NCBI RefSeq assembly: GCF_018977255.1
Contig: NW_024704742.1
Span: 11,968,001 to 12,032,000, forward strand
Source of the DNA: Callorhinchus milii
Taxonomy: Eukaryota
Length of the DNA: 64,000 nt
Direction: 5' to 3'
The notes beneath the pieces are model-generated. The model worked only from the letters and a program-made list of their open reading frames with translations, made no database searches and had not been told where the DNA came from. This document shows positions 30,157 to 60,629 of the stretch, piece by piece. The position numbers and the translations under genes are program-made. Each line of letters begins with the position of its first letter. Position 1 is the first letter of the stretch.

Positions 30157-30314
30157 CACCTGAACCAATCTTGTGTTCTTGTGACCTCCTGTTAACCTTG
30201 CAAGCAGAAGCTCTAATGGGTAGGATTGTTCTAACTGGACAAGCAATTCAAAGTTTGTCAGACAATACCCTCAATTACAATTTATACAGTGATAGCAGGG
30301 TAACTCTAGCAATA

Positions 30315-32463
30315 ACAACAACAACAACAAGATTCCATTTATAAAGCGCCTTTCACGTCAGGAGGACGTCCCAAGGCGCTGCACAGTTGGGTCAGCACCC
30401 GAGCAGGGGGGAAATGGTCAGGGTGAGGGGAGGGAAGGGAGGGAGCGAGGAGCAGGAAGAGAGTCGAGAGGGGAGCTGAAGGCTCGGTCAAAGAGAAAGG
30501 TTTTGAGACCGGCCTTGAAGGAGGAGAGGGAGGAGGCGGCGAAGGCACTGGGTGATGGAGTTCCAGAGCCTGGGGGCTGAGAGACTGAAGGCCCGACCAC
30601 CGATGGTAGGGCGATTGGGGTGGGGGACGTGGAGCAGACCGGAGCCAGAGGAACGGAGGGTACAGGCAGGTAGGTAGGGGGATAGTAGGTCAGAGAGGTA
30701 GGAGGGAGCAAGGCCGTGGATGGCCTTATAGGTGAGGATGAGGATCTTGAAATCAATCCTCTGGGGGATGGGGAGCCAGTGGAGGCGAGCGAGGGTGGGA
30801 GTGATGTGGTCCCGAAGCCTGGTGCGGGACAGTACACGAGCTGCAGAGTTCTGAATGACCTGCAGCTTGTGGAGGGAGGTGGCGGGAAGGCCGGCGAGGA
30901 GAGAGTTCCCATAGTCCAGCCTTGAGGTGACAAAGGCGTGGACCAGGGTTTCAGCAGCGTGAGGGGTGAGGTAGTGCCGTAGTCTGGCGATGTTCCGGAG
31001 GTGATGGAAGGCGGTGCCAGTTGTGGTGCGGATGTGAGGGAGAAAGGACAGCTCAGGGTCGAACAAAACGCCGAGGTTCCTGACTGGCTTTGAGAGGTGG
31101 AGAGTGCAGCCTTGGATGCTGATGGTGTCAGCGCCTGAGGTGCGGAGGCGCTGACGTGAGCCAATCAGGAGGGCCTCGGTTTTTCGCACGTTGAGCTGAA
31201 GAAAGTTGTCTCTCGTCCAGGACTCGATGTCGGACAGGCAGCTGTCAGGACATCGGTGGTCGTGGAGTTGAGAGTAGAGGAGGAAAGGTAGAGTTGGGTG
31301 TCATCCGCATACATGTGGAAGTTAACTCCATGTCTGCGGATGATGTCACCAAGGGGGAGCATATAGAGGGTGAAGAGGAGGGGACCGAGGACAGAGCCCT
31401 GAGGGACACCACATGAGACAGTGCGGGGGGTGGAGGAGAAGCCATTTGTAGAGACAAAGTGAAGACGGTGAGAAAGGTACGACCTAAACCATTCAAGGAC
31501 AGTGCCTTGAAGGTTGAGGTGGGAGGACAAGCGGTGGAGTAGGATAGCGTGGTCGACCGTATCGAATGCTGCCGATAGGTCGAGGAGGACGAGGAGGCAG
31601 AGGGAGCCCTGGTCACAGATGGTCAGGATATCATTGGTGACCTTGACCAGGGCAGTTTCTGTGCTATGGGCAGCACGGAAACCTGACTGAAGGGGTTCGA
31701 AAAGTGAATGGGTGGAAAGGAAAGAGCGCAGTTGGGAGGCGACAACTCTTTCCAGGACCTTGGAGAGAAAGGGGAGGTTGGAGATGGGCCGGTAGCTTGA
31801 TAGCTGCGACGCATCAAGGGAGGGTTTTTTCAGGGTGGGCGTGATGGTGGCAGTTTTTAAGGGAATGGGGACAGAGCCAGAGGAGAGGGACAGGTTGACG
31901 ATGTCGGTGATATGTGGGGCAAGAAAGTGGAGCTGGGAGATAAGGAGTGGAGTGGGGATGGGGTCAAGGGAGCAGGTGGTTGGTTTCAGGGATAGGATGA
32001 GTTTGGTGACAGAGGGTGGGGAAACGGGTAAAAAGGTAAGTAGGGGAGGATGGGTAGCAGTCGGAGTGTGGGAGTGAGGGGGTAGGGGGTTGGTGGATGT
32101 TGGAGGGGAAGTGACCGCGGAGCGAATTCCCTTGATCTTGGATTCAAGGAAATCCAGCATCTCCTCGCAGTGAAGGTTGGAGGAGATGACCTGCGCGGGG
32201 TGGCGGGGGGGACGGAGGAGTCGGGTTGTGGTGGAAAACAGTAGCCTGGGGTTGTTCTTCGCCTCCAGGATTATCCTGGAGTAGAAGGACGACTTGGCCG
32301 AGGCTAGAGTGGAGCGGTAAATTTTGAGGAGGTCCAGCCAGATTTGTCGGTGGACCGTTAGGCCAGATTTGACCCAGGTGCGTTCAGCAGCCCGCACCTG
32401 GCTTTTCAGTGAGCGGAGGTGGGTGGTGTACCAGGGGGAGGAGCGGGAGTAGGAGACAGGGAG
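30315..32463 (-). mobile_element. L2-clade LINE, 5'-truncated, with nearly intact ORF2 reverse transcriptase and 3' tail
   Basis: ORFs 31165-32397 and 30488-31189 carry [59 protein letters not shown] (31300-31311), NLGVLFD and LHWLP. There are two frameshifts (~31241, ~30540) and a (TTG)n tail. A candidate 8-bp TSD is TAGCAATA 30307-30314 / TAGCAGTA 32464-32471. No endonuclease domain is present. Confidence 0.95.
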
Positions 32464-35239
32464 TAGCAGTACCTCAACAGATACTTTGAGGTGTCTCAGG
32501 ACTTAACTCACCAGCCTGCACCTTATGCTCTCCAGAATTAGGTAAGCAATGTGTGTTTCTCCAGACAGAGAGTGCGTACTCCATTCCAGACCCCAGGGAA
32601 TTCCCATCTGTAAATGGCATACATATGTGGAATTCAGTTTGGTTTTCATGCTCTTAAGCATGACGATGGGTTTCTGCTTTTGTCAGACCAAAAAAGTGGA
32701 AAGCAACCAGTCAGAGTTCAACAATCCAATATTATGTAGACATGGTCTGACTTGATTACCTTGAAGAAGAAAAACAACAACTCACATTTGTAGAATGCCA
32801 TTAGTTTCTCAGACCCCTGAAACATGCGTTGAAAAACAACAAAAAATTTTGCAGAACTGTTCTTCAGATGATCTGTTCCATGATACAGTAAATTGTGCAC
32901 AGCGTAGCGAAGGAATAATTTCATGTGCAGATTGGCCTTTTTTATGTTATTCTTATATTCAAATACAAAGATTATTAGTATTATTCTCCAATTTATTTTT
33001 GTTAACATTTTGTATGCTTCTCTTTGCTTTTATTCCATTCCTTATACTTTAAACTCTTATCTCCTCCTTTCCCCTGCTAAACTGGCTAGCCTGTGCAACA
33101 TTCTGCAACAGCATATGCATTAATATTTTGGGAGAAAGAGCATTGATGAAAGTGTTGACTTAGCGGTGAGGTTACATGTATTAATATCAGTGCCAATTTT
33201 GGATGATTACTGGCCATTAAGCAGCTGTTTTGTCCATCGGATATTTATTGGACCATTGGAATGTGATCCATCACTTTGCAAAAACTCACTGCAAATCATT
33301 AAATCTATTAGTTGCAACCAAGAAGTCACAATTAATATGTTCCGTTTTGACCTGAATATCTCGTTTGTCGACCAGATGAAATATAATTGATAAATAAGAA
33401 AGGATTGAAGTTGGCATGCTTGCCTGCAAATGTTGTTAATGAGTTTTCTGCCCTCGGAAAATTACTTTGTTTGCAATTCCTCTACATCCGTGTTATAGAC
33501 ACAAAAAGCCAGAAAAAAATATTGAATGAATTCTATCATAAAACAAAATTTGCTCAGTAGCTTTGTGAATGTTTGGGCTGTCAGCTCCTCAAAAAAGTTT
33601 ATTAAATTGGTCAGATGAGACCTACCCTTTCAGAACCTATTTTGTCTGTCATTTATTAGGTTATTTTATACAAATAATCAAGGTTTCCCTTATGGGTTGT
33701 TAAGTAAATGCTCAATGTAGAAACTCTGCAATGACATAGACTAATACAAAGCCATGTTCAGTGGGGAATTGGGTGATCTCAATCATCAAAGTAGTTTTTT
33801 TTTGGTCATCCAGGAATCTGACCCACCCATCACCATGCTTAAGAGTATCCAAACCAGACTGAGAATTCCATCTATGCCATCTACACATGAAAATTCTAGT
33901 GTCATGAAAGTGGGGCTGTACTCTGCTGGGTGACACAGTGGAAAAGTTACCAGTGGAATGGTATTCACTTTTCCCTACAGAAAAGCACGTGAATAGGGGG
34001 TCAGGACAGAAATAGGCTAACCTGTGAAAGCACCCATGTTTGAATAGCCTGCTAACATTCATTCTCTCCTGTGACATGTGCACAGTAGCCATAATAGTAG
34101 GATAATAGAGGGTCTGCATACCTGCTCAATTGTTTTTATATTTTGTTTCGCCCACCAAATACACAGTCACTCTACTTTACAGTATATTCTGTGAAGCACT
34201 TTGAAATGTCTCAATAATGTGAAGGTGCTATATCAAATGCAAGGATTATTATTTTTATTATTATATTCCAGCAGATTTTCAGTGACTTCACAAAAGGACA
34301 GAAATTGGGAGAAAGGAAAAATAAACACAGAAAACTAGTTGACACAAATATTTTGGTACCAAAAATTATACATAAATAGTCAGTGTGTTTGAGTTTTATA
34401 AAGAAAATTTAAGCAGCTGATAAATAATCTATAGATAATAAATGAAGAACTCTAACTATGTAAACTGAAGTTTAGAAATATCTAACTTTAGTCATCTTTG
34501 CTTGATTTTTCCAATTCACTTTAAGATGTATGTGTTTGGTATGTACTAAATGTCAGTGATTCAAATTCCAAAATGATTCAGGTCAAAATAACATTGTATA
34601 TTCTGTATTATGTGTTAATCAGATTTTGAATTCAATTGAGACCTCATTCCCGAAGTCTCAGCAGAGAAAAAGTGAAGATTTTTTTTATCACTTCCAACTT
34701 CCGTCTGAAAAATTCTGTGATTCAGTTTCATCCTTTGTGACCCTATGTTTCTGCTCTGGTGGTGAACAAATTTAACAACTTTTCTAGTACTCCCTCTGGA
34801 AGGAAAAGTGTCATTGACCTAACCAGGGTGATTGCCTGGAGCTAGACTCATACAGTAGATCTAATAAATTCAGTTCTTTGCCTTGTTTCATCGGTAAACA
34901 TCAATAATTTTCCTTGTTTCCCCCCGCCCGCCACCCTCCCTGACCCCAAACCCCAACTTGGGTCCGAAACTCTGTCTGTTCAGCGCCTTGGGACATCCTC
35001 CTGACGTGAAAGGCACTATACAAATGGAATTTTGTTGTTGTTGTTATATACCACTGCGTATAATCACTTTCTCTGCTGTGAGCTCAATTACCCCCCTCAT
35101 ATTTCTTTGTTGTTTTATTCTGAAGAAGTCCCATTGATTTAAGACCATCGGATTGTATTTTTTTAGAGAGAGTAGGTGCATTACCCAATTTTTGTCCCAG
35201 GTTAAAAAAAAGTTCAGCCCACACTCACACTGCCACACA

Positions 35240-46890: not shown

Positions 46891-47411
46891 TCACAGCACC
46901 CATTCTACCACTGTAAACAAATTAATATATAATCCTTAATTCTTGCATTTGATATAGCACCTATGATGTCAGAAAGGTGCAAAACACTTCACAGATAATT
47001 GCTGTCAAGCATATTGACTGTAATTGTAGAAAAACATGGTGCAGCCAATCAAGGTCTCTGAAACAGCCATGAAGTGAATGGCCAGTTACAATCCAACCCT
47101 ATTATAAAACATATTTTTGCATAGTGCAAATTTGGTTATTAAGTAAATTGCATTGTGGACCTCATTTACTGCTCAAATGCCCTGCTGGACTGATTGCTTC
47201 CTATGTGCCAGCTGGCCAGCTTTTGTACCAAAATAACCCTGCGGGAATAATAATAATAATAATGAAATAATAATCCATGCATTTGATATAGCGTAAGGCC
47301 TATAATATATATCTTAACACCCTACCAGGTCTTCGAGACGTTTCAAAGTGCAAAGTGACATAAGGTCACTACTGATGTCACTTCCTACTTTGCGCATGTG
47401 CAACAAACATC

Positions 47412-47916
47412 GTGGAGTCCTGTAGCTCAGTGGTTAGAGCACTCGCTTTGCAAGTGAGAGACCTGAGTTCATTTCCAGGCAGGTCAGGGCGAAACCTTGG
47501 GCAAGTTTCCTTACTCCACACGCCTAATAATAATCCCTCCAAAACCAAAAACAATAATAAATTGGTCATTTTCAATCTACGACTGCTTGTGGGACATTGC
47601 TGTGCGCAATTGGCTGCCGCGTTCGCCCACAAATATACAGTCAATTCACTTTACAGTGTGTTCTGTGAAGCGCTTTGGGACGTCCTCCCGACGTGAAAAG
47701 CGCTATATCAAATGCAAGGATTATTATTATTATTATTATTATTATTTTCAATCTACGACTGTTTGTGGGACATTGCTGTGCGCAATTGGCTGCCGCGTTC
47801 GCCCACAAATATGCAGTCAATTCACTTTACAGTGTGTACTGTGAAGCGCTTTGGGACGTCCTCCCGACGTGAAAAGCGCTATATCAAATGCAAGGATTAT
47901 TATTATTATTATTATT
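47412..47916 (+). mobile_element. Young SINE with duplicated 3' half
   Basis: Full copy at 47412-47743. The 3' half (from 47568) is repeated at 47744-47916. Confidence 0.92.
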
Positions 47917-47964
47917 GAAGTGACATTGACAATGATTCTTTTTTCTTCTTCTAGCACAGGAACT

Positions 47965-48291
47965 ATAATAATAATAATAATAATAATAATCCTTGCATTT
48001 GATATAGCGCTTTTCACTCGGGAGGACATCCCAAAGCGCTTCACAGAACACACTGTAAAGTGAATTGACTGTATATTTGTGGGCGAACGCGGCAGCCAAT
48101 TGCGCACAGCAATGTCCCACAAACAGTCGTAGATTGAAAATGACCAATTTATTATTGTTTTGTTTTGGAGGGACTATTATTAGGAGTGTGGAGTAAGGAA
48201 ACTTGCCCAAGGGTTCGCCCTCTGCCTGGAATTGAACTCAGGTCTCTCGCTTGCAAAGCGAGTGCTCTAACCACTGAGCTACAGGACTCCA
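47965..48291 (-). mobile_element. Young SINE, short variant
   Basis: Near-identical reverse complement of the family consensus, 48 bp from the preceding copy. Confidence 0.92.
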
Positions 48292-50956
48292 AACTACCTT
48301 GAATGCACGAAGCGAGTTGGAGTTAAATTTGCTATTGGGGATTTTGTGGATCCCGAACACCATTTTATAACAAGGCTGCACTGTAATACAGCAAGACACC
48401 GCATAGTGCTTCATGGTCTGCTGCAGTTTACATGTCAACTGATGGTAGATGTAATTCCTGCATCTCAGTATAATTTAATCACACAGTGTCCCACAAGGAA
48501 TACTGAAGCAGACATAAATGAGGAAGGAAGATAAAAATCTCAGATGGTGACTTACCTTCAGGTTAATTGAAGAAACTATGCCTGTCAAGCAACCTGTATC
48601 CCTGCAGCCAATTCACAAACTTAAAAGAGTTTGGCAGCTGTCTCCTCTGTCATTGTTAGTTATTCTTGGGAGCTTGGGTCACCTCCTGTGGTCTTGAGTG
48701 AGGCTTGATGCTTGTCAATTTTGCCTTAGCACGCTCGCCACTCTTTATGTTCCTTCTGTTTTAACAGCTTCGAAGTCCTCTTAACTTAACTTTGGAGGTA
48801 GCATTTTAACTTGTAATTGTCACTTGCTGCACTCGATGTGCTTCTTTTGCCTGGGCTGTCATTTTCGATACTGAAGGTTTCTGCATTGACATTTTACTGT
48901 CTCAAACACAATCCACCTTTCATCATGAACTTGTTGTTCCTTCCTGAGCCCCACATTCCTCATGTGTGCTCGCAGGCTTCTCCTTCCTTTGCTCAAGTGA
49001 GCACACAACAACCTCTATGTAAATTAGCTATGCCAATTGCCTTGAATATGATTGATAATATTTATCAATATGATGACATAATTGGCATCTTGAATCAGGT
49101 CAGTGTCTGCAAATTTAGTGGATGATAAAAACATTTTGCACACATTTGACCCACAACAGATGTATATAAACAGCCCCTAATGTAAATTAGTTATACTGTG
49201 CACACTAGTTACAGTTGATTTTCAGGTTAAAGCAGTACAATCACTGCATTTCTACTAGCCTGAATCTGACTCCAATTGAGCAAAACAATGAGAGTCTTCC
49301 TCCTGGAGGCAGTCTTGCAATCTTTTGGCTTTGCACGGATTGCATTATAATTACTGTTATTGCAAGCAAATATTTAGTCTTCGAAGTTTAAAACAATCTC
49401 GGGCGATTTGATAGATTGTCTTATAAGATTTTATTTTGATGCTTTCTGCTTGTTTTCTCTTCTCTTCTCTTCCAACTAAGTGATTCCTTCACACATTTAC
49501 GTAATTTGATATCATGATGAGTAACTCGCTAAAGAAGAGGATATATATGAGGAAAGCTAGATTAAAATAGAAAAAGGTATTGAGTGGGGTACCTTGCATA
49601 CATTAATGACTTGAATTCGTAGACAAGTTAGGGAGAATTATAATAATAATAATAATTCTAAAGCAGCAGCAGCATTACTGGCACTTCACTGCCTGCAAAA
49701 GAGCCTTGGATGCAAACTGGATCTCCAGCAGAGAGTCTATTTACATCACTATGACTCATGAGGCTTCAGCTCTGAGGTGATCTTGGGTTGGGGCCAAGGT
49801 CTTGCATGTCAACGTGATGTACGTGGGGTTCACCCTCTGAGAATTCACCTTAACCTTGTTGATGCTTTATTTTGTTGTTCATGCTGTTTGAGACTTTGAG
49901 TGTTGCAGATATGTGATGTGGATATATTCTGCATGTGAACTTGTGGAGCTGCTTTCTAAATGGGTCGCATTCATTCCATTCAGTTTCATCAGCTGAGCCT
50001 TGGTCAAAGCACTGGTGTAAATAAGGGCTGTAGAGTACATCACCATTGCATAGATGTGGATTTAATTATATATCAGAGTGCTCATGTTTTCTGAAGCAGT
50101 GACTTTAGAGGTTCTGAAATCCTGATATCCACAAACACAAAGCTTTCTGATCAGCTGACCCTGAAAACCTCACAAGTAACACTGTTTGTCCAGTTGAGAA
50201 ACCACACATTATAGAGAATATTTAATGTATCGCAAAGTAAATTGGAATAGGCTTGATACGTCAAACAATCATCTCCTTTTCTTCATTCTAAGGCAGCACA
50301 GGCTTGATGGACACAATGGTCTGTTTCTTTGCTGTGGTTTTAATGCCACACTCACTCTTTTTTCCTCCGAAGGATTGTTAATATCCAGCTAAATACTAAT
50401 TAGCCATCAACCTCAGAGTGCAAGTTGGACAAGGATCAGTTAAATTGTTGCTCTTCTATGAAATATTGATCTCACACAGACGAGAGGTGTTTACTGGAAG
50501 AGTGTTTGAATGAATTGCCACCTTAGCGTAAGCAGGAAGCAGGACTAATCCATACTTGGCAACAAAACAGCCTGTCCTGAATAATTGGAAAATGAAAGAA
50601 TCAATGAAAAGTACAATGGAAGAGTACTGGTTTGGAAAGAACCTGACAAATGATAGCTAACAAAAAGAGATATCAACAGCTGGCATGTGTTACCAGGAAG
50701 GCTGGTAGAAATCAGGACATTGGCTCATTTGAAAAACACTGCCGCTGTTGGTGGGTATTCTGGAATTATGGAATCATATCTCAAAGCACATTCTTCATCA
50801 AGTAATTGTTTCCCTGTGATCCTTGTGATCTAGTTACAGCCAGTTATGTATCAAGCTATTGTAGTGTCACCAAACTTTCTACCTTGTAACTCGATCCTCA
50901 ACGTACAGCCTGTGCTATTAGGCATCTCCAACATACAACTCTGAGTCAGGAGCTTA

Positions 50957-51297
50957 CAATAATAATTTCATACCTTTAAGGGGTCTCAAAGTGATTTACG
51001 GAACATATTGTCAAGTGAATTGACTGTGTATTTTGTAGATGAAATGCGGCAGCCAATTGTGCACAGTAGTGTCCCACAAACAGTTGCGGATTGAGTGACT
51101 ATATTATTATTTTAAGGGATTTTACCCCCGGAAAAGCTATCCACCAATCATCTAACTACTGGGTTCCTACTTACTGCTAGATAAACAGAGGTGTATGGAG
51201 TAAGAAAACTTACATAATGTTTCGCCCTGCTCGGGAATCAAACCCAGGTCCTCTCGCTTGCGAGGCGAGTGCTCTAGCCACTGAGCCAAAGGACTCC
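50957..51297 (-). mobile_element. SINE, long variant
   Basis: Contains the extra central block and the tRNA head. Confidence 0.88.
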
Positions 51298-51879
51298 TAA
51301 TGATAATGCCACATCAACTGTCCATTTTATTGTTGAAGTGGACAGTTCAGATTTTTTATTTATTATCATGTATGAATCATAACTTTCAGAAAACTAGGAC
51401 TGAGCATGTTCACTGCCTTGTAAGGTTAGAATTCTATGTATTTTTTATAGTCTATTGCACAATAAATATATAAAATCTTATATTTTGGGTGTATTTTGCA
51501 TGTTAACCAGGATTTTATAGGTGATAAAAAACATTGGATTTATTTATATGCATGTTAGAATATACACTTTTTGTATACTGCTAGAATCATAATAGATGTT
51601 GTGAATGGGTTAACTTTTAAGTTAAGTGTGGGGGACAACTGGACTGACAGTCATGGGATAGGACACATCTGGTTTTCTCTGTTTTTGGAAGAATAACGGA
51701 CAGGGGCAGAGGGTCACCTCTTATCAGTAAATGACAACAAGCCACAGAGGTAACGGTCCAAGGTACCAGTCGACACAGGATCTCGACTGAGCAATAAGTC
51801 GCTAGATTCTGACAGGGCCTGCCAACCGACAGAAGGCAGCCCTCAAGAATAGCAGCTAATGAGCAAGTTGCTTAAACTA

Positions 51880-52227
51880 GAGGACTAGCTTAGTGGTTAG
51901 CGCACTCGCTTCGCAGGTTAGAGAATCTGGATTCGATCTCCTAGCAGGGCAAAATTTTCAGCAAGTTTCCTTACTCCACATGCCTGTTTATCTAGCCGTA
52001 AGTCGGAACCTGGTTGTTAGTCGTTCATTTTTCCCTGGTAATAATTCCTTCAAAATAAATCCTCAACTCAAGACTGTTTGTGGAACAATGCTGTGTGCAA
52101 ATGGCTGCTGTGTTTCGTCCACAAAATATGTAGTCAATTCACTTTACAGTATATTGTGAAGCGCTTTGAAATGTTTCGAAGACGTGATAAGGCGCTATAT
52201 CAAATGCAAGGATTATTATTATTATAA
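51880..52227 (+). mobile_element. SINE, long variant
   Basis: tRNA head, extra block CCTGTTTATCTAGCCGTAAGTCGGAACC, and tail. Confidence 0.85.
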
Positions 52228-52399
52228 TGATCACATTTGAGGTTTAATCGAAGTTAAATTTAACCACCGCTGAAATTGACCCTTTTCAGTCGCCTCATGC
52301 TGATTGTTATCACCACTTTACATGACCTCAAATGTGTAAAAGTTCCTGCTGCTAATACTCCCAGTGCAAAGGTAGTAGTGGCCTGTCAGAGGGCTCAAA

Positions 52400-53035
52400 A
52401 GAATGGCATTGACGAGGACACATGGTATACGGTATCAAGGTTTGCAGATGATGCCAAGCTAGGAAGTATTGCGATTACTGATGAGGATGGCAAGAGACAG
52501 CAAAAGGATTTAAGCAGTACAATGGACTGATCGGAGGCGGATGAGGTTCAATAAGAGGAAATATTAGGTGATTCATTTGGTAGGAAAAACAAGGGGTGTA
52601 TATGTTGAATGGCTGTATTTTGCAAGGAGCTGAGGAGCAAAGGGTTTGGGAATGCAGGCATTCATTGAAAATAGCATCACAAGTGAGACTGTAAAGAGGT
52701 TTCATATATAGCGGCATAGAGTACAAAAGAAAAGCAATAATGTTTGTTTAAATCATTGGTTAGCTCAGAATTGGAGTATTGCATTCGGTTCTGGGCGCCT
52801 CACTTCAGGAAAGATGTCATGGCTTCAAAAGGGATGCAGAGGAGGTTTACAAGAATGATACCGGGGATGAAAGGCTGAAGAGACCAGAGAAGCTGGATCT
52901 GTTTTCATTGGAGCAGAGGGTGAAGGGGAACCTGATTGAAGTGTGCACAAAATTCTGAGGGATTTTGCTAGGGTAAGTTGAGAGAAGTTATTTTCATTAA
53001 TAGGGAAATCAGTGACTAAGGGCCATAGTTATAAC
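52400..53035 (+). mobile_element. CR1 ORF2 fragment, degraded
   Basis: VSRFADDAKLGSI...QKDL. TTGGAGTATTGCATTCGGTTCTGGGCGCCTCAC (LEYCIRFWAPH). Confidence 0.85.
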
Positions 53036-53039
53036 CAAC

Positions 53040-53800
53040 AACTACCAACAACAACAACAAAATTACATTTATAGAGCGCTTTTCACATCGGTAGGACGTC
53101 CCAAAGCGCTGAACAGTCAGGTGTCGGGGCCCGAGCATGGGGGAGGGGTGGTGTAGGGGTGAGGGAAGGCAGAGAGGTGGGAGGGAGACCAAAGGCACGG
53201 TCGAAGAGAAGGGTCTTGAGACCAGCCTTGAAGGAGGCAAGGGAGGAAGCGAGGTGAAGGGACCGTGGGGCGGAGTTCCAGAGTGTGGGGGCAGAGAGGC
53301 TGAAAGCTCGGCCACCGATGGTAGGGTGGGTCGGGCGGGAGACATGGAGCAGGTTGGAGCCTGATGAACGGAGGGAGTGGGCAGGTTGGTAGGGAGCCAT
53401 CAGGTCAGAGAGGTAGGAGGGGACAAGGCCATGGATGGCCTTAAAGGTGAGGATGAGGATCTTGAACTTGATCCTCTGGGGGATGGGGAGCTAATGGAGT
53501 CGGGCAAGGGTGGGAGTGATGGGGATGTGGAGCCTGGTGCGTGAGAGTACACGAGCTGCAGAGTTTTGGATGATCTGAAGCTTGTGAAGGGAAGAGGTGG
53601 GAAGGCCGATGAGGAGGGAGTTCCCGTAATCAAGCCTTGAGGTGACGAATGCATGGGTGAGGGTTTCGGCAGCCTGAGGGGTGAGGCAGTGGCTGAGTCT
53701 GGCAATGTTGCGGAGGTGGTGGTAGGCAGCAGTGCCGTCATGGCGTGTATGTGGGGGAGAAAGGATAGTTCCGGGTCAAACAAGACACCCAGGTTCCTGA
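53040..53800 (-). mobile_element. L2 3' portion
   Basis: FDPELSFLPHI; LRSSGSNLLHV...IGGRAFSLSAPTLWNS...FKAGLKTLLFDRAFG; (TTG)n tail. Confidence 0.92.
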
Positions 53801-56800
53801 TACAGTGCTACAGTTTATGTAAACAGGAAATACGTGTTCTTAGGGGCCAGACAGGGTAACTGGCACTAGAAACCAGGCAGGGACTGGAACGACTAGTACT
53901 TGTTCCTCGGGTCTGGCAGGGTAGACCGGACTGGAAAATACCCACTTTTGAGAATAAAAGAGAGCAGGCAGGGACTGGAACGACAGGTTAATTCTTGGCA
54001 GGAGAACATAAACTCATAAAACCAAGGTTATATCAGTTATAAAATGAGCAGAGAACAGAAACGGAGGGAAGAATTCCAGAAACACAGTAGACAGAATGAA
54101 CAAAAAGAGGATAGGTTTGCCGAGGGATGGTTCAGATGAGCAGTAAGAGAAATTAGAAATCATGCAGAGCACCAGTTCGAGTCTGGGGCACAGGTAGAGG
54201 AATGGCTCAGGAATAAGTTTGTGGCAGGAGAGGTTAAAATGTGAAGACTCTCGGTAAACTGCGAGGGTTCTTTCGACAAGGGTTAATTGGTCAACTTGCA
54301 ACACGTAAAGAAGCCCAAGTAAAAGACGTGGAAGAGTGTAAGATATTAGAGGCGAAGGTAACAGAGCTGGAGGAGCAATGTGATAAAATGAAGGGAGAAG
54401 GTATGCAGAGAAGGAACAGTGGGATCGGAAAGATACACAGAATGAGGAGGTACAAAGAGAGCAGAGAGTAAGGATTGCAGAGCTAAGTAGTATGGTGGCA
54501 AGTCAAGCAATGTTGATTAACGTGGGCTTGTAGGAACAAAAAGAGTTAGGTGAAGTAAGAAGGGAGCTGAAAGTGTTAAAGAAGGAGGTGGAGCGATTGA
54601 AGGGTGAAAATGATAATCTGCAAGGTGCCTACCGGGTGGCTCTTAAGGCAGGAGAAGCTGGACGTCAGGTATACCATCAGGTTTGCAGGGAACAAGTTGT
54701 TGAGTTAAAGGGGCAGCTGCACGAGAAATGGGCTTTTGAGTGGGCAGTAACAGGAGGAAGGGGTAGTAATTGGAGTAATGCCTCTAGCAAATGCTATAAA
54801 GGTGGGGGTAGAGGGCACTTTGTTCGTGATTATCCAAGCGAGCTACAACCAGGGTCTAACCAAATTGAAAATTGCCCCTATATCACCTCTAAACCTTTGC
54901 CCAAGGACCAAAAATTGGATAGATTGATTGCCTTATTAACCCTCCAGCAGGACTGGAGGTGGTATTCAAATCAATAAAACCTCCAGTTCTAAACGTGAGA
55001 AAGATAAAGGAGTGGACAGACTTAAAGCACAAGTAGCAGCCTTAGTGGAGGAAAAAACTTAAAAAGTACAGGAGAACAAGGTTTAAAAGACAAAACAAGA
55101 CAAATTAATTCAGGTAAAAGAAAGGGCAAGGTTAAAGGGATAAACTCAAATCCAATGACAAAACCACCAATACCGAAGGATTGTAAAGGTGAAACTAAGA
55201 AAGGTATTAAAGAGTCAAATTTTGAAGAAAGATTGGGACAAATGGTTACTTCTGAATTTGAAAGATTACAGAAGGAGTTACAAGCAATGAGACAACTGAT
55301 TGAGCAATGTATAGATCCTTGTGTCTCACCGATATGCCTCCAGACCAAACAGATGACGTTTTGGCTAATTTGGAAGCCCTCAAACAGTTCAGCCTCCTTG
55401 ATACTTGTGAGGAGTCAGGAAAGGTCAAAATGCTGTTTGCTCAAATAAAGAGATTAACAAAAGTTGAGAGAGAAAGAGAGTAGGATGGGTTCATTGAAAA
55501 AAACAAGAGAAGAGAACTTTATACAGCACAGAAACTTTAAAAAATCACAAACTGTAGCCACTGAATGTGAGCAGTTTAAATTCACTGACTGCTCGGACTT
55601 CGATTTTTGTAAACAAACGGACACTCACTGCTTCATGCTGACCAGCACCAGCTGCTCAGAGAGAGTTAACCCTTTGGTTTCCACATAAAGCAAAACTGTA
55701 TTTACAGCTAATGATCATGTCCAAGCTACAATTGAATCCCTGGTAAAGCTAGTAGTACAAGTATTTTGAGGTAGTAACACAAATAGATCAAATTTCTATT
55801 CCCACTTCACATGATGGTCACCAACTTTACTGCAATCTTATTAACTAACTGAAGTGTTTAAAGAAACGGGAGATTTCACTTTGTGATTTAGTTCCTACAG
55901 ATACTGACAATGGCTCATTACACCCTATGGAGGTCACTTTCCTTCCGGCGACTTCTTCTGGGATGACTTATACTTCACTTACCCTCCCACCCACAAAGCC
56001 GGTCTTCACATTCAATTTCAGCTCGAAGGTCTGGAGGGGAGATGAGTGGACAAGTCAACCCAATTAATCGTCTACTTCACAACAGCGGCCAATACCTGTA
56101 CAGAGGACAAGGTCTACATTGGCAACCGCGCGGGTTTTGTATGGGCCGGGTGTGGTACAGTGCGCGATGACGGGGTCAATAGGTAAACACTGATAGTTCA
56201 AGAAGGAGAAGTAATAGTATTAAGAATGTCATTGTTCTGATTTATTTTATGTAACATTTACTTTGTCTATTCCAGTATTTCAGTGATGCTCAAAGCCAGC
56301 AGGCAAGGATAGAGAGAACATCCACTGAAATAATATTTCACATTTCTGTGACCATACTATTTGTTAATCATGATATTATTGATTCTATGGACTCTCAAGG
56401 ACATTGGTAACATCAGTACATAAAGGTTGCCAAGAACAAAAGGAGTTTACCGACCTTGAAGGATGCGTTTTTAACCCTACAAAGAATGGTAAAAAGAAGC
56501 TGTTGAAGGTCTCACTGCTGACTTGGCAGACGTGACTAAAAAGATCTAAGTTTGGGAACAAAGAAAAGTCTAACCAATCTTAAGAAGAGATATTCTACAA
56601 TCAACATTGATCGAACCACGTTGACAAGTTGATTCCTAATCACAGCCACTATATCAATCTGATTAATTAATTTATTACTCATGTCTTATCCTTTTGTGAT
56701 TGCCAAAGCCATAATATTATTTACAATGATTGTTTTTTTATTTGCTTTATTGGTCTTGGTGTATTTGTGAGACCTCATTATTATCATTATTTCGGTCTCA

Positions 56801-56810
56801 CGATGGGGAC
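53800..56810 (+). mobile_element. Decayed internal region of an LTR retroelement / endogenous retrovirus-like element
   Basis: A broken coiled-coil-rich ORF from ATG 54044 ends in a degenerate CCHC knuckle, CYKgGGRGHFVRDyP (54792-54836; both lost Cys codons are one substitution from TGT). A second Gag-like segment reads TDDVLANLEALKQFSLLDTCEESGKVKMLF (from 55349). A hydrophobic TM-like stretch lies at 56708-56770, and a purine tract GATGGGGAC (56802-56810) precedes TG. Confidence 0.7.
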
Positions 56811-57504
56811 TGTTAGATTGACTAGAAAATATAGAAATTAAAACACCTTACAGCAATTATAAAACATTAGTTTAAAAATGTTAGAAGAACGCTGAGCCTG
56901 TCAGTTCCAAGGGGCTGGGAGAAGCAGGCACGACCTCTAGTCCTGGAGTATGAGGTAAGGGCCACCTGGAGATAGGGGGAGACCCTGAGCCTGGCACCAG
57001 GACAATGGAATATGTGTCCGAAAGCTTTTCTTGTAAACCAGTTACACTCTCAAGGACAGTACTGAGATACGGTTAAGCCTGTCTCAATTCCAGATGGCCA
57101 AAAAGAAGAGAATGTTGTTGATCAGGTTAGACAGAACAAAGGAAGAGTAAAATTCTGGAGACCATAATCTTATCTGGCCAAAGCAAAAGTTAGAGGGGAA
57201 TTTAGTATAATTGGGATGCCACCGAACAGAGAGGGGTGGGAGCAGGGAGAGAGAGATTAAGAGAAATGTGGAAGCAGGGAGAGAGAGAGACAAAGAGAGA
57301 ACATGAGTATCGCAAATGCTTGAGCCTGAGAAGCCGACATGAAAGACTGAATTCAGCCTACAAACTGCACAGAACTGGTAGTATGTCTATTTATTTACCT
57401 CTTTTGCCATATACTCATAAACTGCTTGTGAATAATAAACCATTGTACCTTTATTAAGGATGTTGAGTCATTATTTCGGGCGGACGGGCGGGCGGGGGGA
57501 GACA
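56811..57504 (+). mobile_element. 3' LTR of the preceding element
   Basis: Begins TGTTAG immediately after a PPT-like tract and has AATAAA at 57434-57439. A CA end at 57503-57504 is plausible but uncertain. No matching 5' LTR is in the window. Confidence 0.6.
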
Positions 57505-57789
57505 CTGTTGCAGGATGTACTATTCTGTACCATACTGTGTTGTAGCTGCTACCAGGGATTCAAACCTAGCGGGCGGAATTGACGTCATGCGGAATGGTGG
57601 GAAAATCTGGAGGTTTAAAATGGCGTCCCCCCTTGACCGGTATTGGCAGCCGCCCCATCTCAAGGTCCATGAGATGCCCAGCCCAGCCGGCAGTTACCTG
57701 CCCCTGCCTCTGGCTAACGCTGGTCCCGATCCGCGGGTCCCCGGCCCACGCTTTGGCTAAAGCTGGTCCCGATCCCAATAAGAATAGCT

Positions 57790-58025
57790 AAAGGAAAACT
57801 TAGGAGGAAATTTTTTCACCCAGAGATTAGTTGGGATGTGGAACATCCTGCTAAGTTGGGTGGTGGAGATGGAGTCCATTGTAGCTTTCAAGAGGGAAGT
57901 AGACAGGCATATTAAAGAGAGGGTCTTGAAGGAGTATGGGGATAAAATGCAATATCCTTGCTCTGTGACCCAGTACAGAGTCGATGGGCTGAATGGCTTC
58001 CTTGTGCCCTGGGATATCTGTTTCT
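57790..58025 (+). mobile_element. CR1 3' end
   Basis: TTTTTCACCCAGAG...TGTGGAAC...GTGGTGGAG...TTTCAAGAGGGAAGTAGAC...GATGGGCTGAATGGC. Confidence 0.75.
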
Positions 58026-58511
58026 AACTCTGCACTACAGGTTTCACCATCATGCTCACTCACATAGGAAGAAAGCTCCAAATAAGAATAAAGTGCTCTG
58101 TCTACCTTTGCAAGAGTCCTTAAGATTTGCTTCCATTCCTGGTTCCTGGATCTGTAGGCTTCCTGAGACAGTACTCAATTATCCTGGATTGATATTGATG
58201 TCTTTCTCAATGGATGCTCAATGGTTCCCTGGACAATGCCTCAGGATTTCTTAAATGAAGACACATGACTTCTTAGATCAATGTCTGAAGGCTTACTGTA
58301 TCAAAGAGTCAATACTTTCCTAATGTTAGTCTCTTTCGCAGTTCTCATTCAATGGACAATTAGCTGGATGCCAATACTCTTGATACCGGATACAGTTTTT
58401 GAATTAGGGAGAATGTGAAGTCCTGAGCACAGTGGTTAGAGCACTCACCTCGCAAGCGAGAAAGCCCAGGTTGTTAGTCGATTGGCAGCTCGCTTTTCCA
58501 GGGATAATAAT

Positions 58512-58840
58512 ATAATAATAACCCTTGCGTTTGAAACAGCGCCTTCACAGAATACACTGTATATTTTGTGGGTGAAACACAGCAGCTAATTGCCCACAAC
58601 AGTGTCCCACAAACAGTCGTGGATTTAGTCACCCAATTATTAGCTTGATCACTATATTTTTTTGGAGGGATTATTACGGAAAGCGATCCGCCAATTCACT
58701 AACATGTGGATTCCTGCTTACTGCTAGGTAAACAGAGGTGCTTGTGGAGTAAGGAAACATGCTCAACAATTCGCCATGCCAGGGCGAAACCCAGGCCCTC
58801 TTGTTTGCGAGGCAAGTGCTTTAACCACTACACTACAGGA
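58512..58840 (-). mobile_element. SINE (long variant) fused at its 5' end to the FLNA fragment
   Basis: The minus strand starts TCCTGTAGTGTAGTGGTTAAAGCAC at 58840 and includes the central block, body and (ATT)n tail. Confidence 0.88.
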
Positions 58841-59176
58841 GGCGGGGGAGGGGGGTGGGTGGGGAGGGAAAGGGGGGACGATTTAGTGCATGGACACGTG
58901 GAAAGTGCTCCAGGGATGTGGCTATCCTCCAATTTGACCACCAGGATGTAATCGCTTTTCTCCTTGAGCAGGTAGGAGACATTGTCAAGTTTGCTCCCCG
59001 GGAGTTTGACCACAACCTTTCACAGGGGCTGATGGGTCTGTGCACAGCCACCATCAACATGTTAGACCGCACTTTGCTGCAGTCCATGGTGAAGCAGTTT
59101 TTCTGGATGACAAATGCCTTTATTAGACCGAGACCTTTGGCCGTCACTTTGCTATGTTGGCTCTGGGGGGGACCCT
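58841..59176 (-). pseudogene. FLNA: Processed pseudogene fragment of filamin A (C-terminal Ig repeat 24, stop codon, ~40 nt of 3'UTR)
   Basis: Minus-strand translation across two 1-nt frameshifts (~59018 and ~58909) gives SKVTAKGLGLIKAFVIQKNCFTMDCSKVRSNMLMVAVHRPISPCE/VVVKLPGSKLDNVSYLLKEKSDYILVVKLEDSHIPG/STFHVSMH*. This is colinear with the recalled FLNA C-terminus ([90 protein letters not shown]). The stop (58883-58885) is at the equivalent position. AKGLGL and VSYLLK favour FLNA over FLNB/FLNC. Confidence 0.9.
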
Positions 59177-60629
59177 TAATAATTCCTTAAAAATAATAAT
59201 AATTTGATCGCTCAATCCACGACTGTATGTGGGACACTGCTGTGTGCAATTGGCTGCCATGTTTCATCCACAAAATATACAGTCAATTCACTTTACAGTA
59301 TATTCTGCAAAGCGCTTTGAGACGTCTCGAAGATGTAATAAGCGCTATATCAGATGCAAGGATTATTAGTATTATTACTTCAGTTATCTAGTTTTATGTT
59401 AATTGCATACATGTAACCTAAAATCTCACATGATCCCATTTTGGAAATAAAATAATTTTCTATGATTTTAATGAAAGGCTAAAAGTGAAATTCTGAAAAG
59501 TTTAGATGTGACCAAGTTCACATTAAATTCGCTATTAAATCTGCAATACAAATTGGATGAAAACTCAATTTTGAAAATAAATCAAGCCAGTGGGATAATT
59601 AGCTCCTACAAATTTAGTATTAAAACATTAATCTATAGAATGGCATTTATCTGCATATTAAACAATTCTCATTTCCAGAGCCAATGAAAATTGCGGAAAT
59701 ATTTCCCAAAAATATGGGGAAGGTTTTGTGGAAAATTGCAGGGGGCTGATTGATGGTGTTGAGAGGTATATTATACTGCCAAGCTACATTTTACTTTATT
59801 GATAAAGACTGAACATGAAGAAATAACGCATATTAGATTTTTGCATAAAAAAATGTTTTCTTTAACAAAAACTGGGTGGCCCACTCGAGGCGGTGGGGAT
59901 GGGGAACGGGGATGGGAACACTGGCGCAGGCCCAAAGGGCTGAATGGTCCGTTTCCACCCTGCACTAAAGCTTGAAGGCCAGTCTCCTGACAGAGGGGCT
60001 CCAGGAGGTCATCACCTTCTGCCTCCCAAGACCTGCCACTGCACACAGACACAGACACACAGACTCACACGCATACACTCACAGATACACAGACAGACAG
60101 TATATTTTCCAGGGGAGGTAAACTGGAGCAGAACTGGTTCGGAACATGGTTGGCAATCAAAGACTCTTTCCAACCTGTGCCTAATATTCTCCGGATTAAA
60201 ATTGAATTGAGTTTTCCAAGCCAGAACAGTTTCACCTATCATAATAATGTTAATAATAATATATAATCCTTGCATTTGATAAAGCGCTTTTCACGTATTC
60301 GCAACATCTCAAAGCGCTTCACAGAATATGCTGTAAAGTGAATTAACCGTATATTTGTGGGCAAAATTTGCAATTTGCAATCTGACTTTTAAGGTCCCAA
60401 CAACAATAGGACAACATTTGAAAATGCAATTCCTTCTGCTCCATGAACATTTGAGGTTTAGTAAACACATATACAAACTGCTACAAATAATAGCAATTAT
60501 CAGCAAGATTACACATTTCACTATGTTTTGCACAGCATATTTTTTCATGACATTAAGGTTTAGTTTTTTTAATTAAATATAATTGGCTCTAGGATATTAG
60601 TCAGCAAGTGTTGGGAAGCATGAAATCTA

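What the first reader, a model, noticed from the sequence alone, without database searches (positions are those of the whole stretch)
58505..59183. Filamin A mRNA fragment fused to a SINE and inserted as one unit: candidate template-switch retro-chimera
Seen: on the minus strand, ~335 nt of FLNA (end of CDS, stop, ~40 nt of 3'UTR) runs with no poly(A) straight into the 5' end of a nearly full-length SINE (junction 58841/58840). The 665-bp unit interrupts a plus-strand SINE and is bracketed by a single pair of TAATAAT repeats (58505-58511, 59177-59183). Known: LINE reverse transcriptases can switch templates during target-primed reverse transcription, as in U6-L1 chimeras. L2/CR1 enzymes are generally thought to need a specific 3' tail and so rarely copy mRNAs. 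Inference: an L2-type RT primed on the SINE tail, copied the SINE to its 5' end, then jumped onto FLNA mRNA. This would be a route for retrocopying host mRNA by hitch-hiking on a SINE in an L2/CR1-dominated genome.
Basis: partly seen in the sequence, partly recalled or inferred. Interest (0 to 1): 0.8.

Follow-up and report, generated by a model that had tools for sequence, protein, structure and literature searches.

The report
Filamin mRNA piece fused to SINE
A spliced fragment of a filamin messenger RNA, joined to a short mobile element (SINE), was pasted into this genome as one piece, and a second copy elsewhere shows a very similar joint, so the fusion is not a one-off accident.

Summary
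On the minus strand, 58512-59176 holds the last ~290 nt of a filamin repeat-24 coding sequence, a TAA stop, 43 nt of C-rich 3'UTR and a near full-length tRNA-Ala-derived SINE. The 665-bp unit splits an older plus-strand SINE at its internal TAATAAT, which now flanks both sides.

New findings:
- The fragment crosses, without an intron, the intron position conserved in both filamin genes of the assembly. It is therefore mRNA-derived.
- Its parent is a third, FLNA-like paralogue that I could not find in the assembly.
- A second chimera on another contig (C2) joins a SINE 5' end to the same UTR stretch, 27-30 nt past the stop. Its lesions, 5' end and insertion site are independent.
- The SINE shares its 3' hairpin and tail with an RT-bearing LINE in the window.
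- The two SINE heads are 35% apart, against 20% for the coding parts, and share almost no private variants.

The joint reflects a property of the source RNA, not an accident at this locus. A SINE resident in the parental 3'UTR (0.42) and recurrent template jumping onto a preferred acceptor site (0.33) remain nearly tied. This is a new variant of known chimeric or transduced retrocopies.

The parts
58414..58504 (+). 5' part of the older host SINE (tRNA-like head, with an internal deletion of consensus nt ~70-140)
   Evidence: Alignment to other SINE copies and to the consensus. 8 of 69 aligned bases differ from the consensus.
58505..58511 (.). Left TAATAAT: the host SINE's internal target site, or one copy of the target-site duplication. 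It adjoins the inserted SINE's (ATT)n tail.
   Evidence: The family consensus has one TAATAAT here.
58512..58840 (-). Inserted SINE of the long subfamily, from about nt 9 to the (ATT)n tail. It carries two internal deletions; one removes the 38-nt 3' hairpin.
   Evidence: 50 of 321 bases differ from the 376-nt consensus.
58841..58883 (-). C-rich stretch after the stop, taken as filamin 3'UTR. The first ~11-27 nt are alignable with the C2 copy.
58884..58886 (-). Filamin stop codon TAA, at the same place in the C2 copy
58887..59176 (-). Processed filamin repeat-24 coding fragment (end of hinge 2 to the C-terminus). The exon-exon joint lies between 59069 and 59068. One-base deletions lie near 59012 and 58908.
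59177..59183 (.). Right TAATAAT (host SINE sequence, or the second copy of the target-site duplication)
59184..59378 (+). 3' part of the host SINE (core, hairpin and ATT-type tail)
   Evidence: 14 of 192 bases differ from the consensus. Best genome hits are 88-91% identical.
30311..32502 (-). LINE fragment with a reverse transcriptase domain and a 3' end homologous to the SINE 3' end. It is the candidate partner family, not part of the insertion.
   Evidence: RVT_1 E 2.6e-31. The 3' end 30386-30311 matches the SINE 3' end at 60 of 72 nt. Both fold into the same two-tier hairpin.

Best explanation
A messenger RNA of an FLNA-like filamin gene was copied into DNA by the reverse transcriptase of the LINE family that mobilises this SINE. 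The mRNA gained access to that tail-specific enzyme because a SINE sequence sat in sense orientation directly behind its stop codon.

Most likely the SINE was already resident in the parental 3'UTR, about 30-45 nt past the stop, when the copies were made. In that case the joint is a feature of the source RNA and not an accident at this locus.

At this locus the LINE endonuclease nicked the internal TAATAAT of an older SINE, a recurrent target. The nicked end paired with the (AUU)n tail. Reverse transcription then ran through the SINE, the 43-nt UTR and ~290 nt of spliced coding sequence before stopping.

A second copy on contig C2 arose separately from the same kind of RNA. There, only the old SINE head came with the filamin piece. 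The rest of the SINE looks like younger SINE sequence, either a host SINE split at the homologous position or a second SINE template reached by a homologous switch.

Shown: one-unit insertion, mRNA origin, a joint recurring within 16 nt, and a shared SINE/LINE tail. Inferred: that the SINE was resident in the parental UTR, and the priming details.
For: 1. Two loci carry filamin end + TAA + C/T-rich UTR + SINE 5' end in the same orientation. They were the only 2 matches in the genome to either copy.
2. Their coding parts share 26 derived bases against both genomic paralogues at 168 paralogue-conserved sites. They share no frameshift or stop, and have 13 versus 14 private changes. They are therefore separate copies of one third paralogue.
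3. Both are contiguous over the conserved intron site.
4. The SINE joined to filamin looks pre-aged in both loci.
   - In the window it is more diverged than the host SINE it interrupts: 50/321 against 22/261, p 0.011. Best genome hits are 83-87% against 88-91%.
   - In C2 its head is 48/175 from the consensus, against 16/198 for the rest and 19/176 for the upstream head (p 9e-7 and 7e-5).
5. Both SINE heads carry the minor variant GT at nt 16-17, seen in 2 of 53 other heads.
6. An AU test does not reject the two heads as sisters (p 0.53).
7. The SINE 3' hairpin and tail are shared with an RT-bearing LINE.
8. The internal TAATAAT is a repeated insertion target. There are 3 exact-pattern nested insertions genome-wide against 0 for the reversed control pattern.
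Against: - If one resident SINE were the template for both copies, the two SINE heads should be each other's nearest relatives, about as far apart as the coding parts. They are not.
  - They differ at 58/166 (35%), against 51/250 (20%) for the coding parts (p 0.0014).
  - Each is the other's most distant relative among 45 heads.
  - They share only 4 non-consensus bases in 318 columns, where about 2.8 are expected by chance.
- The joints are not identical. C2 has 27-30 nt of UTR and then SINE nt 1. The window has 16 more C-rich bases and starts at SINE nt ~9.
- The SINE consensus was built from copies chosen for likeness to the C2 upstream head. This flatters that head and may inflate the apparent age of other sub-lineages.
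- The parental gene was not seen, so the central premise is untested.
Confidence: 0.42

Rival explanations
1. Recurrent template jumping. The parental 3'UTR held no SINE. Twice, the LINE reverse transcriptase copied a free SINE RNA to or near its 5' end and then continued on a filamin RNA. It landed both times in the same C/T-rich stretch just past the stop. That stretch would be either a preferred pairing site or the 3' end of a discrete filamin RNA fragment.
For: - The two SINE heads behave as unrelated family members: 35% apart, rank 44 of 45, and 4 shared variants against 2.8 expected by chance.
- The joints differ in detail: UTR +27/30 to SINE nt 1, against UTR +43 to SINE nt ~9.
- The SINE 5' end sits at or near the joint and there is no poly(A).
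- In C2 the filamin piece is followed upstream by another SINE head that stops at the SINE's internal TTTT. This would be expected if the enzyme jumped again, to the 3' end of a short pol III transcript.
- Multi-part chimeras made by double template jumps of a non-L1 LINE are reported in Magnaporthe (PMC2104539; I saw only the search listing and the start of the abstract).
Against: - Two independent jumps landing within 16 nt of each other on an mRNA of several kb need a hot spot, for which I have no independent evidence.
- Fresh SINE RNA should look no older than its surroundings. In both loci the filamin-linked SINE looks older.
- The shared rare GT variant would be a coincidence (2 of 53 other heads).
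- The mosaic C2 SINE needs extra switches.
Confidence: 0.33
2. One founder chimera, made once by any route, was later transcribed and copied again. The two loci would then be parent and offspring, or two offspring of a lost master.
For: - The two copies cover nearly the same filamin interval. The 5' ends lie 23 nt apart and the UTR ends 16 nt apart.
- The C2 chimera's filamin part was covered by one ~358-nt contig in each of two runs guessed to be RNA (88 nt of it aligned to the window copy), so the C2 chimera may be transcribed.
Against: - No frameshift or stop is shared, although the window copy has 2 disabling lesions and the C2 copy has 6.
- The SINE heads are far more different than the coding parts. 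A dead master would age evenly along its length.
- No third copy is in the assembly.
Confidence: 0.1
3. RNA-level joining before reverse transcription. A cleaved filamin RNA 3' end was ligated to a SINE RNA 5' end, and the chimeric RNA was then copied through the SINE tail.
For: - The clean head-to-tail joint has no poly(A).
- RtcB-type ligation has been reported to precede retrotransposition of U6/L1 chimeras (PMC6789731; I saw only the search listing and the start of the abstract).
Against: - Nothing in the sequence separates this from template jumping.
- It needs the same unexplained preferred cleavage site in the UTR.
Confidence: 0.05
4. Two unrelated insertions that happen to lie side by side: a SINE, and separately a filamin retrocopy.
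For: None beyond the fact that the host's TAATAAT is a repeated target.
Against: - There is one pair of flanking repeats, and the host SINE resumes with no bases lost.
- The filamin part has no tail of its own with which to prime.
- The same pairing recurs at a second locus.
Confidence: 0.02

Closest known systems
Chimeric retrocopies made by LINE template switching (U6-L1 type; tripartite chimeras of the Magnaporthe MGL LINE, PMC2104539)
   Same: - Two unrelated transcripts are fused head to tail in one orientation.
- The retroelement part lies at the 3' end, and a single pair of target repeats flanks the whole unit.
- The C2 copy even has three or four parts.
   Different: - The 3' partner is a tRNA-derived SINE whose tail matches a non-poly(A) LINE, not L1 or Alu.
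- The acceptor is an mRNA joined inside its proximal 3'UTR, not the 3' end of a small RNA.
- The joint recurs at nearly the same place in two loci, which one-off switching does not predict.
5' transduction and exon capture by non-autonomous retroelements (for example SVA with captured upstream exons, PMC6139936; only the search listing and the start of the abstract seen)
   Same: Host-gene sequence lying upstream of a non-autonomous element in one transcript is carried along when the element's 3' end is used for priming. The carried part is spliced.
   Different: - Here the carried part would be the 3' end of a coding mRNA with the element inside its 3'UTR.
- The enzyme would be a tail-specific LINE, not L1.
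- The source locus was not found.
- The SINE parts of the two offspring do not match each other.
Ordinary processed pseudogenes (L1-type, poly(A)-primed)
   Same: The fragment is intron-less, 5'-truncated and decayed (frameshifts), and is flanked by a short duplication.
   Different: - There is no poly(A) and the 3'UTR is cut at 43 nt.
- The 3' end is a SINE tail.
- Passages of PMC3136929 report that retrocopy numbers in non-mammalian chordates follow L1 counts and not L2, CR1 or RTE counts.
- Passages of PMC5470649 say CR1-type sequence recognition limits which cellular RNAs can hitch-hike.
SINE/LINE pairs with a shared 3' tail ('stringent' recognition; passages of PMC3747384)
   Same: - The SINE has a tRNA-Ala-like head (ARAGORN).
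- It has a 3' hairpin and microsatellite tail homologous to a LINE in the window (60/72 nt).
   Different: That literature concerns SINE mobilisation. Carrying a coding mRNA fragment along is the extra step seen here.

Membership tests
Processed (retro)pseudogene | Lacks the introns of the parental gene | tested here: met
   Both genomic filamin genes have a phase-1 intron between DCSKAG and (S/T)N(M/I)L, with GCAG|gt...ag|GG boundaries. The window copy and the C2 copy are contiguous there.
Processed (retro)pseudogene | Poly(A) tract at the 3' end | tested here: not met
   There is no A-run at 58841/58840 or at the unit's 3' end. The unit ends in the SINE's (ATT)n tail.
Processed (retro)pseudogene | Identifiable parental gene elsewhere in the genome | tested here: not met
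   Four protein queries found filamin exons only on contigs C5 and C12, plus the two copies. The copies are 37.5-42.3% different from both genes. The parent is absent from this assembly.
Template-switch chimeric retrocopy (U6-L1 type) | Two transcripts fused in the same orientation inside one pair of target-site duplications | tested here: met
   The 665-bp unit lies between TAATAAT copies and the host SINE is restored exactly. Caveat: the left repeat may belong to the (ATT)n tail.
Template-switch chimeric retrocopy (U6-L1 type) | The donor element is copied to, or near, its 5' end at the joint | tested here: met
   The joint lies at SINE nt ~9 in the window and nt 1 in C2, relative to the 5' end defined from 29 copies.
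Template-switch chimeric retrocopy (U6-L1 type) | The joint is created de novo at each event, so the source gene has no such joint | not testable with these tools
   The parental gene is not in the assembly. Contigs of 4 runs laid at 80% likeness gave no parental sequence (see Tried and rejected).
5' transduction from a SINE resident in a gene's 3'UTR | Independent offspring share the same gene-SINE joint | tested here: inconclusive
   The joints lie at +27/30 and +43 nt past the same stop, in low-complexity C/T-rich sequence. They are the same to within 16 nt but not identical.
5' transduction from a SINE resident in a gene's 3'UTR | Offspring carry the same SINE copy (shared private variants) | tested here: not met
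   There are 4 shared non-consensus bases in 318 columns, against ~2.8 expected by chance. The heads are 58/166 apart, at rank 44 of 45. The AU test does not reject sisterhood (p 0.53).
tRNA-derived SINE with a LINE-derived tail | tRNA-like 5' head | tested here: met
   ARAGORN SINE heads in 47000-59500 as tRNA-Ala. The filamin-linked head aligns to them.
tRNA-derived SINE with a LINE-derived tail | 3' end homologous to that of an autonomous LINE in the same genome | tested here: met
   The LINE 3' end 30386-30311 matches the SINE 3' end at 60/72 nt. Both fold into the same hairpin. RVT_1 lies upstream with E 2.6e-31. The LINE clade (L2, CR1 or other) was not determined.

The most novel reading that the evidence does not exclude
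In this genome a tail-specific LINE reverse transcriptase repeatedly makes end-to-end jumps from SINE RNA onto a discrete, non-polyadenylated filamin RNA fragment. The 3' end of that fragment lies in a C-rich element 27-43 nt past the stop, and its 5' end lies in the hinge-2 codons. The enzyme can then jump on again, to pol III-terminated SINE head transcripts. SINEs would then be a general vehicle for retrocopying pieces of host mRNA, including decay intermediates, in genomes whose LINEs do not accept poly(A).
Probability: 0.25. Interest if true: 0.75.

Novelty: new variant of a known kind. Interest (0 to 1): 0.5.

Why it matters
Genomes dominated by tail-specific LINEs (L2, CR1, RTE types) are thought to make few gene retrocopies, because their enzymes ignore poly(A) mRNAs. 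Passages of PMC5470649 and PMC3136929 say this.

This locus, with its sister on another contig, is a concrete case of a spliced mRNA piece that entered the genome on a SINE tail. Whichever sub-model is right, it shows a route by which such genomes can still copy coding sequence.

The two loci also give a test system. The parental 3'UTR decides between 'resident SINE as entry ticket' and 'recurrent template jump'.

The scale here is anecdotal. There are two decayed, non-functional fragments, so the immediate biological consequence is small.

Tried and rejected
- **Pfam** on both filamin frames gave no Filamin hit. The assignment rests on PDB matches and on the genome's own filamin genes.
- **The search for homologous proteins** with 'longer' scans only up to 2000 aa and so cannot reach filamins. 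It found nothing. The paralogue call therefore rests on PDB E-values alone.
- **Sequencing runs**: no RNA holder was listed. Rows X5-X12 are only guessed to be RNA.
- **Laying contigs of X1, X5, X6 and X8** at 80% likeness gave no parental filamin contig on 58855-59150. The only foreign contig there (58926-59013, 13 differences) is the C2 copy itself. The lack of cover is not evidence.
- **** spliced the paralogue exons one base short, which put the codon positions out of frame. Both were redone, and only numbers are used for codon-position and private-change counts.
- **A or G editing as the cause of the diverged C2 head** is rejected. Its changes are 27 transitions and 21 transversions of mixed types.
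- **A distinct SINE subfamily as the source of the C2 head** is not supported. The best genome hits are 77-80% identical (40 scored of 3234 candidates).
- **Head-head-rest duplications as a sign of internal priming.** The 3 exact-pattern hits are all ordinary complete nested insertions.
- **Earlier notes of this scan**: none by place, words or sequence.
- **Literature searches** listed no report of an mRNA retrocopy carried on a tRNA-SINE tail by a non-L1 LINE. These were word searches of an open-access library, so absence is weak. Suh 2015 on CR1 and retrogenes is not held, and I saw it only as cited in PMC5470649. One search used a species name that was only my guess. The organism is not known to me.
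Full report
**1. What is there**

- TAATAAT stands at 58505-58511 and again at 59177-59183, with 665 bp between the two copies.
- On the minus strand the 665 bp read, 5' to 3': about 290 nt of coding sequence, TAA (58886-58884), 43 nt of C-rich sequence (58883-58841), then a SINE running to an (ATT)n tail at 58512.
- Two minus-strand frames match filamin repeat 24 in the PDB.
  - First half: E 1.6e-14 for FLNB, 3.8e-14 and 4.7e-14 for FLNC, and 5.5e-14 for FLNA. These were the only 4 sequences returned.
  - Last 44 residues: 2.7e-7 for FLNA, 1.6e-6 for FLNC and 1.2e-5 for FLNB.
- Pfam did not report the Filamin repeat.
- The two frames are linked by a one-base deletion near 59012. A second one-base deletion near 58908 disturbs the last codons.

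**2. The SINE and its host**

- blastn of the SINE against the window gave 51 matching pieces, roughly 25 copies in 64 kb.
- A genome search with a SINE head found at least 6025 first-look candidates, of which 40 were scored.
- From 29 of these copies I derived a 376-nt consensus for the 'long' subfamily. Its 5' end is TGTGGAGTCCTGTAGC.
- ARAGORN reads three heads in 47000-59500 as tRNA-Ala.
- The plus-strand flanks 58414-58511 and 59177-59378 are two halves of one SINE, broken at the single TAATAAT of the consensus with no host base missing.
- That internal TAATAAT is a repeated target. An exact pattern for 'end of head, then a new SINE 5' end' found 3 sites genome-wide, against 0 for the reversed control. 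All three are complete SINEs nested at this site.
- The left TAATAAT adjoins the inserted SINE's own tail repeat, so the real duplication may be anything from 0 to 7 bp. Either way the unit fits the host exactly.

**3. The enzyme**

- Of 24 long ORFs scanned, 2 carry RVT_1.
- The LINE at 32502-30311 (minus strand) ends with a stretch that matches the SINE 3' end at 60 of 72 nt, followed by a (TTG)n tail.
- The LINE end and the host SINE end fold into the same two-tier hairpin.
- This is the classic shared-tail arrangement of 'stringent' LINE/SINE pairs (passages of PMC3747384).
- The filamin-linked SINE in the window lacks 38 nt covering this hairpin. I cannot tell whether they were lost before or after insertion.

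**4. mRNA origin**

- The window lies in a 991-Mb assembly. Protein searches find filamin exons only on contigs C5 (FLNC-like) and C12 (FLNB-like).
- Both genes have a phase-1 intron between ...DCSKAG and (S/T)N(M/I)L..., about 0.7 kb long in C5 and 3.3 kb in C12.
- The window copy reads straight through this point, between 59069 and 59068. The fragment therefore derives from spliced RNA.
- It differs from both genes by 38.5% and 38.9%. Those two genes differ from each other by 33%.
- The parent is thus a third paralogue, which is not in the assembly.

**5. A second chimera**

- DNA searches with either copy return exactly two places: the window, and G000:C2:53600341-53600640 (locus L002).
- L002 reads, on one strand: a partial SINE head (nt 1 to ~172, ending ...GGATCGCTTTTCCCC), filamin coding sequence from AGCAAA..., TAA, 27-30 nt of C/T-rich sequence, then a complete SINE from nt 1 (TGTGTAGTCC...) to its tail.
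- It is also contiguous over the intron site.
- The two coding parts differ at 51 of 250 sites.
- At 168 sites where the two genomic paralogues agree, 26 changes are shared by both copies, 13 are private to the window copy and 14 are private to C2.
- No disabling lesion is shared. The window copy has 2. The C2 copy has 6: deletions of 1, 11, 7 and 1 nt, one insertion, and a TAA.
- The window copy extends 23 nt further 5'.
- These are therefore two separate copies of one source, of similar age.

**6. What the second copy says about mechanism**

*For a joint that pre-dates both insertions*
- In an mRNA of several kb, two SINE 5' ends sit within 16 nt of each other just past the same stop.
- Both SINE heads carry GT at nt 16-17, seen in only 2 of 53 other heads.
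- In both loci the filamin-linked SINE looks older than its surroundings.
  - In the window it is 50/321 from the consensus, against 22/261 for the host it interrupts (p 0.011). Best genome hits are 83-87% against 88-91%.
  - In C2 the head is 48/175 from the consensus, against 16/198 for the rest of the same SINE and 19/176 for the upstream head (p 9e-7 and 7e-5). The contrast holds at non-CpG sites, 39/153 against 11/179.
- An old SINE sitting in a pol II transcript would give this pattern. Fresh SINE RNA would not.

*Against one resident SINE as the template for both*
- The heads differ at 58/166, against 51/250 for the coding parts (p 0.0014).
- Each is the other's most distant relative among 45 heads.
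- Over 318 columns they share 4 non-consensus bases, where about 2.8 are expected by chance.
- The 3' halves differ at 27/152, no more than the coding parts. Equally close unrelated pairs exist.
- The joints differ: the window has 16 extra C-rich bases and lacks SINE nt 1-8.

*Limits of this evidence*
- The AU test does not reject the two heads as sisters (p 0.53). Both sit on long branches, so this is weak.
- The consensus was built from copies chosen by likeness to the C2 upstream head, which biases some of the distances.

**7. The C2 mosaic**

- The young upstream head (nt 1-172) and the young 3' part (nt 176 to the end) would together make one SINE.
- That SINE is split at the same internal site as the window's host, by 'filamin + UTR + old head'.
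- Two readings fit.
  - A genomic SINE was nicked at its TAATAAT/T-run and primed on the homologous internal site of a SINE-bearing filamin RNA.
  - One reverse-transcription run switched between SINE templates by homology.
- The upstream head stops at the SINE's internal TTTT, which resembles a pol III terminator. That resemblance is my recollection of the motif, not a test.

**8. Verdict**

- Shown: a single retro-insertion; spliced mRNA origin from a third, FLNA-like paralogue; a SINE tail at the 3' end; a LINE with the same tail; a recurring joint.
- Not shown: where the joint was made.
- I rate the models as follows.

| Model | Probability |
|---|---|
| SINE resident in the parental 3'UTR, possibly with homology-guided exchange with other SINE sequence | 0.42 |
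| Recurrent template jumping onto a preferred site or RNA end | 0.33 |
| A re-copied founder chimera | 0.10 |
| RNA ligation before reverse transcription | 0.05 |
| Two separate insertions side by side | 0.02 |

The claim of a one-off template switch at this locus does not.

**9. Comparison with known cases**

- The closest known cases are listed below.
  - LINE template-switch chimeras (PMC2104539; preprint 10.1101/2025.02.02.635956 on L1 recombination with other RNAs; listings and starts of abstracts only).
  - 5' transduction or exon capture by SVA (PMC6139936; listing and start of abstract only).
  - RNA ligation before retrotransposition (PMC6789731; listing and start of abstract only).
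- Reviews state that CR1-type recognition limits which RNAs can hitch-hike (PMC5470649, passages) and that retrocopy counts in non-mammalian chordates follow L1 (PMC3136929, passages).
- My seven word searches listed no case of an mRNA fragment carried on a tRNA-SINE tail by such a LINE. This is weak evidence of absence.
- I file the finding as a new variant of a known kind. Interest is moderate: the finding is real and mechanistically puzzling, but it rests on two decayed copies.

Noticed in passing
L002 (G000:C2:53598841-53602119), about 1328-2170: The second filamin-SINE chimera has a mosaic SINE (old head, young 3' part). It also has an extra upstream SINE head that stops at the SINE's internal TTTT. 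Together the two young parts would make one SINE split at the same internal site as the window's host SINE.
   Followed up: partly
L002, filamin part (C2:53600341-53600640): A ~358-nt contig identical in its differences to the C2 copy is present in two runs guessed to be RNA, at depth 12-15. The window copy is not covered in those runs. The C2 chimera may be transcribed, but the runs' RNA status is only a guess.
   Followed up: partly
window 30311-32502 (-) and 38113-38571 (-): Two LINE fragments carry reverse transcriptase domains. The first keeps a 3' end with the same hairpin as the SINE and a (TTG)n tail, whereas the SINE tail is (ATT)n.
   Followed up: partly
window, whole: SINE density is very high, about 25 copies in 64 kb. 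There are at least two subfamilies, a long form and a short form that lacks ~65 nt of the head region. Several copies are nested or adjacent head to tail (for example 47418-47914 and 47972-48290).
   Followed up: partly
G000:C3:96261077, C4:12790465, C8:3797786 (L081-L083): Short-subfamily SINEs are inserted in sense orientation exactly at the internal TAATAAT of long-subfamily SINEs. This site is a recurrent target, probably because it pairs with the tail repeat.
   Followed up: yes
whole assembly G000: Only two filamin genes (FLNB-like on C12, FLNC-like on C5) are detectable with four exon queries. An FLNA-like gene, the inferred parent of both retrocopies, is missing from the assembly or from the lineage.
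   Followed up: partly
window 58512-58570 (-): The filamin-linked SINE has lost 38 nt between two AAGCGCT-type repeats. This removes the hairpin thought to be recognised by the LINE enzyme. A second deletion of ~17 nt lies just upstream.
   Followed up: no
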